Positions 1 to 1,403 of a stretch of 1,403 bases of DNA are shown piece after piece. The stretch's first letter is position 1, and every line of letters begins with the position of its first letter. Position numbers and translations under genes: made by a program. A model generated the notes under the pieces. The model searched no databases. It saw nothing but the letters and a program-made list of their open reading frames with translations, and was not told where the DNA came from. Source of the DNA: Naegleria gruberi (taxonomy: Eukaryota); the NCBI GenBank assembly GCA_000004985.1, contig GG739431.1; one strand, written 5' to 3'.

Positions 1-669
1 TTCAATCGATCAGATGTATTCGCAGAAGAAATTTCACAAGTGATTCTTTCTGGAGGTGGAACACTCAATCCTTCAATAAGGAGTGCAATTATTGATCGAT
101 ATTTCAAAGATGGAAATGTTTCGAATATTTTACAAGCATCAACCATAGGTGCAGCTCTTCAAGCAGCTGTAGTATATGAACCATTCCAAACTGTTTCTTT
201 AATACTGGCACCATTTTCTCTTGGGATTGAGAATTCTGACAGCCAGTTAGTGAAAATCATTGAAAGAGGAACAGTTCTGCCAACTGTCAAGAAGATGGTC
301 TTTTCTAGTGAAAGAGGATTTCTTGATTCTGTTGATTTTTGTATATTTGCTGGTGATAACATTTATGAAATGGAAAAGAATATTCAATTAGGTCAATTGA
401 CCTTGGAAGGAATTGAGTTGACTGAAAAGGGGAAATCTCAAATTGAAGTTTCTTTTGAATTGAGTGATAGTTTCATTCTCAATGTTACTGCCACTGATTT
501 AACAACCAAAGAAAAGAGTGAAAAGTTAATTTCTTTGGAAAAGTTAGAAAGTAATAGGGAACTCACAAACAAACTTGAACAGGATGCTTCCAAAGATGGA
601 GAAGAGAAGGAAATTAGAAAATTACTCCATACTTATAATTCACCAAGTGTTCTCCATGAAGAATTGTAA
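1..669 (+). CDS. Hsp70-family molecular chaperone, C-terminal portion. 5' partial, open at the window edge. Covers the end of the nucleotide-binding domain, the linker, the substrate-binding beta domain and a truncated lid, with C-terminal HEEL.
   Basis: Frame 1 has no stop from nt 1 to the TAA at 667-669. The translation ...EEISQVILSGGGTLNPSIRSAI...ASTIGAALQAAVV matches the Hsp70 connect motif IVLVGGSTRIPKVQ and DEAVAYGAAVQAA. SLILAPFSLGIE matches the interdomain linker DLLLLDVTPLSLGIE. LVKIIERGTVLPTVKKMVFSS matches LIKRNTTIPTKKSQVFST. NIQLGQLTLEGIELTEKGKSQIEVSFELSDSFILNVTATDLTTKEKSEKLIS matches [51 protein letters not shown]. The protein ends ...SPSVLHEEL immediately before TAA. The ORF-track start at 40 is a GTG and the frame continues upstream to nt 1. 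Confidence 0.88.
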   Translation, partial: FNRSDVFAEEISQVILSGGGTLNPSIRSAIIDRYFKDGNVSNILQASTIGAALQAAVVYEPFQTVSLILAPFSLGIENSDSQLVKIIERGTVLPTVKKMVFSSERGFLDSVDFCIFAGDNIYEMEKNIQLGQLTLEGIELTEKGKSQIEVSFELSDSFILNVTATDLTTKEKSEKLISLEKLESNRELTNKLEQDASKDGEEKEIRKLLHTYNSPSVLHEEL

Positions 670-699
670 ATAGCCAATTCAATTACAATAATAGATAAG

Positions 700-705
700 T
701 TTATT
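700..705 (-). promoter_or_regulatory. Candidate polyadenylation signal AATAAA for the minus-strand gene
   Basis: The + strand tttatt at 700-705 is AATAAA on the minus strand, about 70 nt downstream of the TAA at 776..774. AT-rich sequence produces such hexamers by chance, so this is weak. Confidence 0.25.
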
Positions 706-773
706 ACACTTTAGTATGGACAATATACAAAAATATTTCAAAAACTGTTTCGTTTAAGAAAGAATTTGACCAC

Positions 774-1217
774 TTAAGGAATTCTAACACAAACAGTTTG
801 TCCACTCTTTCCACCTCCATTCAACAACTTTCTAGCTTGATATTCAACTTCTTGAAAAACTCTTCTCTTGCGTTCTTCCAAAATCTTGGCTCTTCTCTTT
901 GCTTTCTCAGCACATCTTTCAGCTGCCTTTCTTTGGGCTTCTTGAGCTCTACTCTTTGCTTTGGATTCAGCTTGATCTTTCTTATTGGCAGCCTCAGCGA
1001 GCTCTCTAGATTTCTTGGCATTCGACTGCTTCTTTCATTCTCTTTATAGCTTCTTGAGCATCTCTTTGGAGTTTTCTGGCTAATTCCTCAGCTTGTCTCT
1101 TTCTTTCTTCTGCTAATTGTATGGCTAGTTTCTTCAAGACCTCTTTGAGCAGCTTCTTTGGCTTTCTTGGCAGGCTTTGAGGACCTTCTTTCTATCTTTC
1201 ATAACCTTCTTGATCAT
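774..1217 (-). CDS. Gene for a highly charged Ala/Lys/Glu/Arg-rich helical (coiled-coil-like) protein of unknown family, with its reading frame interrupted by frameshifts. Possible pseudogene, indel errors or recoding. The 3' 87 codons (1034..774) are intact.
   Basis: Minus-strand ATG at 1217..1215 sits in an aaaATGa context, with an in-frame TAA 27 nt upstream. The start frame reads MIKKVMKDRKKVLKA..., then degrades (CQESQRSCSKRS) and stops at TGA 1136..1134. The +1 frame reads ...PAKKAKEAAQRGLEE... The +2 frame reads ...KEVLKKLAIQLAEERKRQAEELARKLQRDAQEAIKRMKEAVE... and stops at TAG 1008..1006. The original frame is open again from 1034 and reads AKKSRELAEAANKKDQAESKAKSRAQEAQRKAAERCAEKAKRRAKILEERKRRVFQEVEYQARKLLNGGGKSGQTVCVRIP, ending at TAA 776..774. 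That last segment has no in-frame ATG, so it needs the upstream start. Codon pattern is GCN/AAG/GAA/AGA with purine at codon position 1. Net frame is conserved. I do not recognise the product family. Confidence 0.55.
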
Positions 1218-1357
1218 TTTCTTTCCAATCCTTGACAACAGTTATTCTTAAACAATAGATCCAAGTTGTTGCTTCCAAACAAGATATGCTCAACTTGACT
1301 CCATTAGATTTAATGGGATCAATATTTCCGAAACCAGACTTTACAAATTCCATCAAA
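1218..1357. promoter_or_regulatory. Short divergent intergenic region, presumed to carry promoters and 5' UTRs for both genes
   Basis: 140 bp separates the minus-strand ATG at 1217 from the plus-strand ATG at 1358. No defined motif was recognised. The call rests on position only. Confidence 0.3.
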
Positions 1358-1403
1358 ATGGCGAAAAAGAAGAAAACTAAAATTTTGCAATTAAAAATTA
1401 AAA
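1358..1403 (+). CDS. Possible 5' end of a + strand gene, 3' partial, with N-terminus MAKKKKTKILQLKIK...
   Basis: ATG at 1358 in a strong aaaATGg context, open to the window end (15 codons only). It lies 140 bp from the divergently oriented ATG at 1217. It is too short to assign a product. Confidence 0.2.
   Translation, partial: MAKKKKTKILQLKIK

What the first reader, a model, noticed from the sequence alone, without database searches (positions are those of the whole stretch)
1011..1172. Two of the frame transitions occur at an identical decamer TGCCAAGAAA (+ strand tttcttggca at 1011-1020 and 1163-1172)
At both sites the upstream frame reads x-TGC-CAA-GAA-A and the downstream protein-like frame reads GCC-AAG-AAA (Ala-Lys-Lys). 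The A-K-K unit is a motif repeated elsewhere in the protein. In each case, removing the single T in front of GCC restores a continuous, sensible protein (...KVLKA-AKKAKEAAQR... and ...KEAVE-AKKSRELAEAANKK...). An identical single-base discrepancy in an identical 10-nt context twice within 150 nt is unlikely for independent random mutations. It suggests either a systematic, context-specific basecalling or assembly error, or a biological +1 event. One such event would be ribosomal +1 frameshifting of the Ty3 type, where a slow in-frame A-site codon (here TGC) is skipped and the overlapping +1 codon GCC is read. Another would be transcript-level slippage or editing. I cannot distinguish these from sequence alone.
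Basis: partly seen in the sequence, partly recalled or inferred. Interest (0 to 1): 0.5.

Follow-up and report, generated by a model that had tools for sequence, protein, structure and literature searches.

The report
Frame breaks on tiny Naegleria scaffold
The repeated ten-base word is real, but it lies in a repetitive lysine/glutamate/alanine-rich coding stretch on a 1.4-kb leftover scaffold of the Naegleria gruberi draft genome, where three or four clustered one-base frame breaks look like sequence errors or fresh damage in a redundant gene copy, not a frameshifting signal.

Summary
The decamer (minus strand TGCCAAGAAA) is at 1011-1020 and 1163-1172, as reported. The minus strand carries a truly 3-periodic coding signal whose phase steps +1 three or four times between 1200 and 1006. 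Alanine-codon (GC) phase pins two steps to within a few bases of the decamers.

The coincidence is weak:
- Repeated 10-mers are common in this A/K/E/R-rich stretch.
- Random placement of the transition intervals gives such an overlap in 16-68% of trials.
- An almost equally good three-lesion model makes decamer A no transition at all.
- The extra base cannot be assigned. It could be the T, one A of the AAA run, TGCC or the whole 10-mer.

The window is an entire 1,403-nt scaffold of the Sanger N. gruberi NEG-M assembly. It duplicates a locus on a 223-kb scaffold (5 of 124 residues differ in the neighbouring Hsp70-like gene). The broken ORF has no homologue and no gene model anywhere.

The lesions are clustered and all in one direction, and the ORF is otherwise undamaged. 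No slippery or hungry codon, stop-codon context or downstream RNA structure supports programmed +1 frameshifting.

Most likely these are consensus errors, or otherwise recent lesions in a redundant copy. Programmed recoding has about 4% probability.

The parts
1..669 (+). C-terminal 222 codons of a very divergent Hsp70-like gene. It ends in HEEL followed by TAA (667-669). The annotated model NAEGRDRAFT_77063 covers 295-669.
   Evidence: Pfam PF00012, E = 4.7e-25, 88 bits. 100% identical to the N. gruberi predicted protein P0001, whose longest contig is 1403 nt.
670..773 (.). Spacer of 104 nt between the stop codons of two convergent genes.
   Evidence: Stop positions.
1195..1353 (-). N-terminal ORF segment (ATG at 1353-1351; MEFVKSG...NDQEGYER), closed by TAG at 1194-1192. 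Whether it belongs to the same gene as the coiled-coil part is inferred.
   Evidence: ORF list. Positive codon score in this frame. Coordinates.
1173..1196 (-). Short segment read as DRKKVLKA in the next (+1) frame. This assignment is uncertain: the alternative frame reads IERRSSKP.
   Evidence: One Ala codon in phase at 1175. The two readings differ by only about 3.5 bits.
1163..1172 (-). Decamer copy A, TGCCAAGAAA. The phase step 0 to 1 lies inside it only if the preceding segment is read as KKVLKA.
1130..1171 (-). Segment AKKAKEAAQRGLEE in the third frame. It is followed by a further +1 step between 1150 and 1125 (for example A1129 or T1127).
   Evidence: GC phase 1 at 1171, 1162, 1153 and 1150. 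Codon scores.
1021..1128 (-). Segment LAIQLAEERKRQAEELARKLQRDAQEAIKRMKEAVE. Its frame closes at TAG 1008-1006.
   Evidence: GC phase 2 at seven positions, 1125-1029. Codon scores.
1011..1020 (-). Decamer copy B, TGCCAAGAAA. The last +1 step lies between 1034 and 1009, and most probably within 1026-1009.
   Evidence: Frame-0 stop at 1037 and frame-2 stop at 1008. GC phase changes between 1029 and 1019.
774..1019 (-). C-terminal 81 codons (AKKSRELAEAANKK...GGGKSGQTVCVRIP) plus TAA at 776-774. This is the clearest coding segment.
   Evidence: 14 of 16 GC dinucleotides in phase. Codon scores. No homologue among 1.84 billion representatives.

Best explanation
The minus strand of this 1.4-kb Naegleria gruberi scaffold holds a lineage-specific ('orphan') ORF of about 190 codons. 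It encodes an A/K/E/R-rich, probably helical protein, and it is interrupted by three or four extra single bases within about 190 nt. These are not a signal.

Most likely they are base-calling or consensus insertions in a poorly covered stretch of a leftover Sanger scaffold that duplicates a properly assembled locus. The identical decamer follows from repeated use of the same Ala-Lys-Lys / Cys-Gln-Glu codons (GCC AAG AAA) in a low-complexity coding region. It is not a specific context that causes the shift.

- **Shown:** organism and scaffold identity, the existence of a second copy, real phase steps, weak statistics for the decamer, and absence of homologues or RNA structure.
- **Inferred:** that the extra bases are errors rather than true mutations.
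For: 1. **Provenance.**
- The neighbouring gene is 100% identical to N. gruberi NAEGRDRAFT_77063, whose only contig is 1,403 nt, which is the window length.
- It is 96% identical (119 of 124 residues) to NAEGRDRAFT_74719 on a 223,047-nt scaffold.
- The assembly is Sanger with 35% GC (PMC9928731). The window has 34.8% GC.
2. **Shape of the lesions.**
- All steps are +1.
- They fall within 187 nt of a 577-nt ORF (P about 0.10 for random sites).
- The restored ORF has no in-frame stop, although it is rich in codons that are one mutation from a stop. After 40 random substitutions only 8% of simulated ORFs stay open.
- Young, clustered, unidirectional lesions are what a local read-quality problem produces.
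3. **Ambiguous base.** Each break can be placed at a short run (GAA-A at all four sites) as well as at the T.
4. **The decamer is not special.** Repeated 10-mers are frequent here, and the overlap with transitions has P = 0.16-0.68.
5. **No recoding features.** There is no Rfam match and no stable structure 3' of any site (z = +0.7, +1.6, -1.0, +0.6).
Against: - No reads or quality values could be inspected, so error is inferred rather than shown.
- The five amino-acid differences from the sister copy of the Hsp70-like gene are mostly conservative (E/K, S/A, E/V, L/I, S/T). There is no indel in 669 nt of that gene. This looks like true divergence of a real second copy, so the scaffold is not simply junk reads.
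- Neither locus has a gene model for this ORF in any frame. This could mean the well-covered sister locus is broken too, which would make the lesions real.
- Insertions in runs of only 2-3 bases are not typical of good-quality Sanger data.
Confidence: 0.52

Rival explanations
1. The breaks are real mutations. The scaffold is a diverged allele or paralogous duplicate in which this orphan gene, and perhaps the Hsp70-like neighbour, is a recently inactivated pseudogene.
For: - The copy differs from the main-scaffold copy by conservative substitutions without indels in the Hsp70-like ORF, which suggests true divergence.
- No gene model covers this ORF at either locus in any of six frames.
- Both annotated Hsp70-like models are cut at the same internal Met, although the window ORF stays open and Hsp70-like for 98 codons upstream. 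This hints at a decaying locus.
- There are no homologues in 1.84 billion representatives.
Against: - Three or four frameshifts with no nonsense mutation are unexpected for slow neutral decay. At 40 substitutions, P(no stop) is about 0.08.
- The coding periodicity is intact.
- All indels go in one direction and are clustered (P about 0.1 each).
Confidence: 0.3
2. Biological recoding. Ribosomes shift +1 at several sites, or the RNA is corrected, for example at (C/G)AA-GAA-A or x-UGC-C. The cell then makes the full 191-residue coiled-coil protein from the broken ORF.
For: - All steps are +1.
- The restored ORF is perfectly clean and strongly periodic on both sides of each step.
- Two steps can be placed in an identical decamer.
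- All four can be written as GAA-A.
- Weak similarity of about 75 nt around the two decamers could mean the break predates an internal duplication.
Against: - No shared heptamer of a known +1 type is present, and the P-site codons differ at the two decamers.
- UGC is not expected to be slow (established knowledge).
- By Ala-codon phase, the steps at about 1172 and about 1129 lie at least 26 nt and at least 35 nt upstream of the incoming frame's stop codons (1136 and 1090). They are therefore not stop-triggered as in Euplotes, antizyme or RF2.
- The A runs are only 3 nt, too short for transcriptional slippage.
- There is no downstream structure.
- No homologue shows conservation.
- The flank similarity is marginal once the decamer is conditioned on (P = 0.02-0.2 upstream, not significant downstream).
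- No nuclear programmed frameshifting in Naegleria turned up in the literature search.
Confidence: 0.04
3. The reading path is over-interpreted. The purine-rich strand (43% A, 26% G, 16% T) keeps all three frames open for long stretches. Fewer breaks exist than claimed, either one TAG plus one shift or three lesions, and decamer A is not at a transition.
For: - All three frames are open between 1191 and 1137.
- The three-lesion model scores only 3.5 bits below the four-lesion model.
- Composition of the strand.
Against: - The single-shift model (read-through of TAG 1194, then one shift) scores 12 bits lower.
- Four Ala codons in phase 1 at 1171-1150, followed by seven in phase 2, show that at least the steps 1 to 2 and 2 to 0 are real.
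Confidence: 0.1

Closest known systems
Redundant small scaffolds (haplotigs or low-coverage leftovers) in Sanger whole-genome shotgun drafts, with consensus indel errors
   Same: - A tiny scaffold (1,403 nt) duplicates a locus on a large scaffold at about 96% protein identity.
- The single-base frame breaks are clustered and unidirectional, in an otherwise clean ORF.
   Different: - Read depth and quality could not be inspected.
- The substitutions in the neighbouring gene look like true divergence rather than error.
Young pseudogene in a duplicated or allelic segment
   Same: - The ORF is broken by frameshifts.
- There is no gene model and no homologues.
- The neighbouring gene model is truncated at both loci.
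   Different: There are no nonsense mutations, and the periodicity is fully preserved despite three or four indels.
Ty3-type +1 programmed ribosomal frameshifting (GCG-AGU-U; yeast retrotransposon Ty3)
   Same: - The shift is in the +1 direction.
- At decamer A an Ala codon (GCC) would sit in the P site.
- The +1 codon overlaps the 0-frame A-site codon.
   Different: - The P-site codon at decamer B is GAA.
- The A-site UGC is not a rare-tRNA codon.
- There would be three or four sites in one small gene instead of one site between two long ORFs.
- There is no conserved downstream context and no evidence of conservation.
Stop-codon-dependent +1 frameshifting (Euplotes AAA-UAA/UAG, antizyme UCC-UGA, bacterial prfB CUU-UGA)
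   Same: - There are several +1 shifts in one gene, as in Euplotes.
- The first and last breaks could formally be read as AGA-UAG-A and AUC-UAG-A.
   Different: - The Ala-codon phase places the two middle shifts well upstream of the incoming frame's stop.
- There is no AAA-UAR motif.
- The organism uses TAA as a normal stop (HEEL-TAA; ...VRIP-TAA).

Membership tests
Ty3-type +1 programmed frameshift | A fixed heptamer with a special P-site codon, used identically at each functional site | tested here: not met
   The sites read GCC-UGC-C (A) and GAA-UGC-C (B), so the P-site codons differ. The other one or two breaks lack the motif altogether.
Ty3-type +1 programmed frameshift | Slowly decoded ('hungry') 0-frame A-site codon | not testable with these tools
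   TGC occurs in this ORF only at the two decamers, against TGT elsewhere. However, Cys has a single tRNA (GCA) that matches UGC perfectly (established knowledge). No tRNA abundance data are available for Naegleria.
Ty3-type +1 programmed frameshift | Conservation of the shift site and of both frames in homologues | tested here: inconclusive
   No homologue was found in 5.8 billion proteins or 1.84 billion representatives, or in the metagenome and viral scans.
Stop-codon-dependent +1 frameshift (Euplotes / antizyme / prfB) | The shift occurs with the 0-frame stop codon in the A site | tested here: not met
   For the step near 1172, the Ala-codon phase has already changed by 1162, and the frame-0 stop is at 1136. 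For the step near 1129, the phase has changed by 1125, and the frame-1 stop is at 1090.
Transcriptional slippage / RNA editing | A long homopolymer run (typically at least 6-9 A or T) at the site | tested here: not met
   The longest run at any site is AAA.
Programmed frameshift (any type) | Stimulatory RNA structure 3' of the site | tested here: not met
   MFE z-scores of +0.69, +1.61, -1.01 and +0.55 for 81-nt windows at the four sites. No Rfam match. A structure is not obligatory for +1 events.
Draft-assembly artefact (redundant low-coverage scaffold) | A very short scaffold that duplicates a locus on a large scaffold | tested here: met
   The longest contig of P0001 is 1403 nt, equal to the window length. 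The cluster mate P0003 lies on a 223,047-nt scaffold and is 119/124 identical.
Draft-assembly artefact (redundant low-coverage scaffold) | Low read depth or quality at the discrepant bases | not testable with these tools
   No reads or quality values are available.
Pseudogene | Disablements shared by independent high-quality copies, or accompanied by other decay | tested here: inconclusive
   No in-frame stop in the restored ORF and intact periodicity argue for very recent lesions. Absence of any gene model at either locus argues that the sister copy may be broken too.

The most novel reading that the evidence does not exclude
Naegleria gruberi expresses an orphan coiled-coil protein from a gene that needs three or four +1 recoding events. 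These would occur at a short purine-rich motif ((C/G)AA-GAA-A, twice embedded in UGCCAAGAAA). This would be a multi-site +1 frameshifting system outside ciliates, not dependent on stop codons. A variant reading is that the identical 10-nt word (3n+1 bases) is itself a small inserted element that is removed or bypassed.
Probability: 0.04. Interest if true: 0.8.

Novelty: not a real feature. Interest (0 to 1): 0.12.

Why it matters
If the frame breaks were programmed, this would be the first multi-site +1 recoding gene in a heterolobosean, and it would not depend on stop codons. That would be a notable finding.

As it stands, the value is practical. The case shows that in low-complexity Lys/Glu/Ala-rich coding sequence, identical 10-mers at apparent frame breaks are expected by chance. 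It also shows that tiny redundant scaffolds of draft assemblies should be checked against their main-scaffold twin before recoding is invoked. Finally, it flags an unannotated orphan ORF and a truncated Hsp70-like model in the N. gruberi annotation.

Tried and rejected
**Alternative readings considered and rejected**
- **Alternative genetic code** (ciliate TAA/TAG = Gln, Euplotes TGA = Cys). The Hsp70-like gene ends in HEEL-TAA. Reading through would run it into the convergent gene.
- **Tiny or ordinary introns bridging the frames.** I read the minus strand by eye. The only GT...AG pairs at the breaks are 13, 14, 19 and 21 nt long, with non-consensus donors (GTCGAA, GTCCTC, GTTATG). The removed sequence is itself strongly coding-like. 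No systematic enumeration was run.
- **Stop-triggered +1 shifts at every ORF end.** This is contradicted by the Ala-codon phase.
- **Internal duplication explaining the two decamers.** A local alignment of 1224-1148 with 1067-996 scores 38, against about 19-21 in shuffles. More than half of that score is the decamer itself. Anchored flank tests are marginal (P = 0.017-0.23 upstream, 0.37-0.94 downstream). No tandem repeat was found.
- **Known RNA families:** none found.

**Searches that led nowhere**
- Exact-protein look-ups for the window ORF, P0001 and P0003 returned nothing.
- Homologue searches with the fused protein, the C-terminal 81 residues and a six-frame concatenation of 670-1403 all returned nothing.
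- Metagenome scans and viral scans were empty.
- Pfam and PDB gave only insignificant helical-repeat hits.
- The phage DNA search was empty.
- The N. gruberi genome paper and review are not held in the library. One literature search was uninformative.

Full report
**What is in the window**

The 1,403-nt window has 34.8% GC and holds two convergent genes.

On the + strand, bases 1-669 are an open frame. It encodes the C-terminal 222 residues of a very divergent Hsp70 (Pfam PF00012, E = 4.7e-25, only 88 bits). It ends in HEEL-TAA.

On the minus strand, from ATG 1353-1351 to TAA 776-774, there is an A/K/E/R-rich coding-like sequence. It is open only in pieces. With frames numbered by reverse-complement index mod 3, the pieces run:
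- frame 2 down to TAG 1194;
- frame 0 down to TGA 1136;
- frame 1 down to TGA 1090;
- frame 2 down to TAG 1008;
- frame 0 down to the final stop.

Every change is a +1 step.

**Where the window comes from**

The Hsp70-like fragment is 100% identical to the Naegleria gruberi predicted protein NAEGRDRAFT_77063 (P0001). Its only contig is 1,403 nt, which is exactly the window length. The window is therefore an entire tiny scaffold of the N. gruberi NEG-M assembly.

That assembly was made from Sanger reads and has 35% GC (PMC9928731, Table 1).

P0001 shares a 90% identity cluster with NAEGRDRAFT_74719 (P0003). P0003 lies on a 223,047-nt scaffold and differs at 5 of 124 residues: E/K, S/A, E/V, L/I and S/T. 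The window is therefore a second, slightly different copy of a locus that is also assembled in a large scaffold. It may be an allele, a paralogue or a leftover of poorly matching reads.

I could not obtain the DNA of the sister locus with the available tools.

**Checking the observation**

Both copies read x-TGC-CAA-GAA-A in the incoming frame and GCC-AAG-AAA in the +1 frame.

The frame changes are real features of the sequence, not an illusion of a purine-rich strand. The GC dinucleotide marks Ala codons here, and its phase runs as follows:

| Position | Phase |
|---|---|
| 1175 | 0 |
| 1171, 1162, 1153, 1150 | 1 |
| seven positions, 1125-1029 | 2 |
| 14 of 16 positions, 1019-836 | 0 |

A crude codon-usage profile agrees with this.

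**Why the decamer coincidence is weak**

First, repeated 10-mers are common here. There are 12 in the window and 6 in 780-1220. Of the dinucleotide shuffles of that region, 84% contain at least one.

Second, I placed four intervals of the observed widths at random in the region. One of the existing repeated 10-mers overlapped two of them in 16% of trials with narrow, phase-defined intervals, and in 68% with assumption-free, stop-defined intervals.

Third, the extra base cannot be assigned.
- Removing T1172 and T1020 gives a codon log-odds of 119.8.
- Removing the last A of each decamer gives 117.8. This is a GAA-A pattern that fits all four breaks: TAT GAA A GAT, CAA GAA A GCC, GAA GAA A CTA and CAA GAA A TCT.
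- The two are indistinguishable.
- Because the decamer is 3n+1 bases long, removing TGCC or the whole word also restores the frame.

Fourth, a three-lesion path has a -1 step near 1198 and reads ...GYEKIERRSSKPAKKAKE.... It scores 116.3 and makes decamer A no transition at all.

Fifth, AKK occurs only at the two decamers in the restored protein, so it is not a recurring motif.

A possible internal duplication around the decamers is only marginal once the decamer itself is discounted.

**Is it a known gene?**

No. All of the following returned nothing:
- the fused protein;
- the C-terminal 81 residues against 1.84 billion representatives;
- a six-frame concatenation of all ORFs of 670-1403;
- Pfam and PDB sequences;
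- metagenome and viral scans.

The ORF is therefore an orphan, with no gene model in any frame at this locus or the sister locus.

**Mechanism**

Three properties of the lesions stand out.
- All are +1.
- They lie within 187 nt of a 577-nt ORF (P about 0.10 for four random sites).
- The restored ORF shows no other damage, although it is full of codons that are one mutation from a stop. After 40 random substitutions only 8% of simulated ORFs remain open.

Slow neutral decay does not predict this pattern. A local problem of base calling or consensus building does, and so would programmed recoding.

Recoding lacks every supporting feature that could be tested here.
- The two decamers have different P-site codons.
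- The other breaks lack the decamer.
- By Ala-codon phase, the two middle steps lie at least 26 nt and at least 35 nt upstream of the incoming frame's stop. This excludes a stop-triggered mechanism of the Euplotes, antizyme or prfB type.
- The A runs are only three bases long, too short for transcriptional slippage.
- There is no stable RNA structure downstream of any site and no Rfam match.
- No homologue exists to show conservation.
- UGC is read by the single, perfectly matching tRNA-Cys. The 'slow A-site codon' premise of the Ty3 analogy is therefore not expected to hold (established knowledge, not tested here).
- A literature search found no report of nuclear programmed frameshifting in Naegleria.

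**Weighing the ordinary explanations**

I rate a consensus or base-calling error in a low-coverage leftover scaffold as most likely, at about 0.5.

Real, recent lesions in a redundant allele or paralogue come second, at about 0.3. Two observations keep this alive. The conservative substitutions and absence of indels in the neighbouring Hsp70-like ORF look like true divergence. Neither locus has a gene model for this ORF.

A reading with fewer breaks than claimed has about 0.1, and programmed recoding about 0.04.

**Verdict**

- The sequence facts are confirmed.
- The statistical argument for a special decamer context is not.
- The Ty3-type interpretation is not supported.
- This is most probably an artefact or a fresh lesion on a tiny redundant scaffold, so interest is low.

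The single decisive computation is an alignment with the 223-kb scaffold carrying NAEGRDRAFT_74719, together with inspection of the Sanger traces.

Noticed in passing
window 1-669 (+): The Hsp70-like ORF is unusually divergent (88 bits to Pfam HSP70; the only hit outside N. gruberi is a bacterial DnaK at 34% identity). It ends in an ER-retrieval-like HEEL. The annotated models at both loci (P0001, P0003) start at the same internal Met (295-297). In the window, however, the ORF is open and Hsp70-like back to base 1. The gene may therefore be mis-modelled or a fragment at both loci.
   Followed up: partly
window 1011-1020 and 1163-1172 (-): The decamer is 10 nt (3n+1). Excising the whole word, or just TGCC, restores the reading frame as well as deleting one base does (KVLKA|AKEAAQ and KEAVE|SRELAE). 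An identical small insertion at both sites therefore cannot be excluded from this sequence alone.
   Followed up: partly
window 1224-1148 vs 1067-996 (-): There is a weak similarity of about 75 nt between the regions upstream of and including the two decamers. It places the in-frame TAG (1194-1192) opposite ATG (1038-1036). It is significant against shuffles but marginal once the decamer is conditioned on.
   Followed up: yes
window 670-773: Only 104 nt separate the stop codons of the two convergent genes. The two 3' ends must therefore be very short or overlap.
   Followed up: no
window 1195-1353 (-): The 53-codon N-terminal segment (MEFVKSGFGNIDPIK...) is not low-complexity and has no homologue. 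An alternative start exists (ATG 1217-1215, MIKKVMKDRKKVLKA, in the next frame). That start would remove the need for the first frame break.
   Followed up: partly
window 1389-1403: AATTAAA is repeated 2.1 times at the very end of the scaffold.
   Followed up: no
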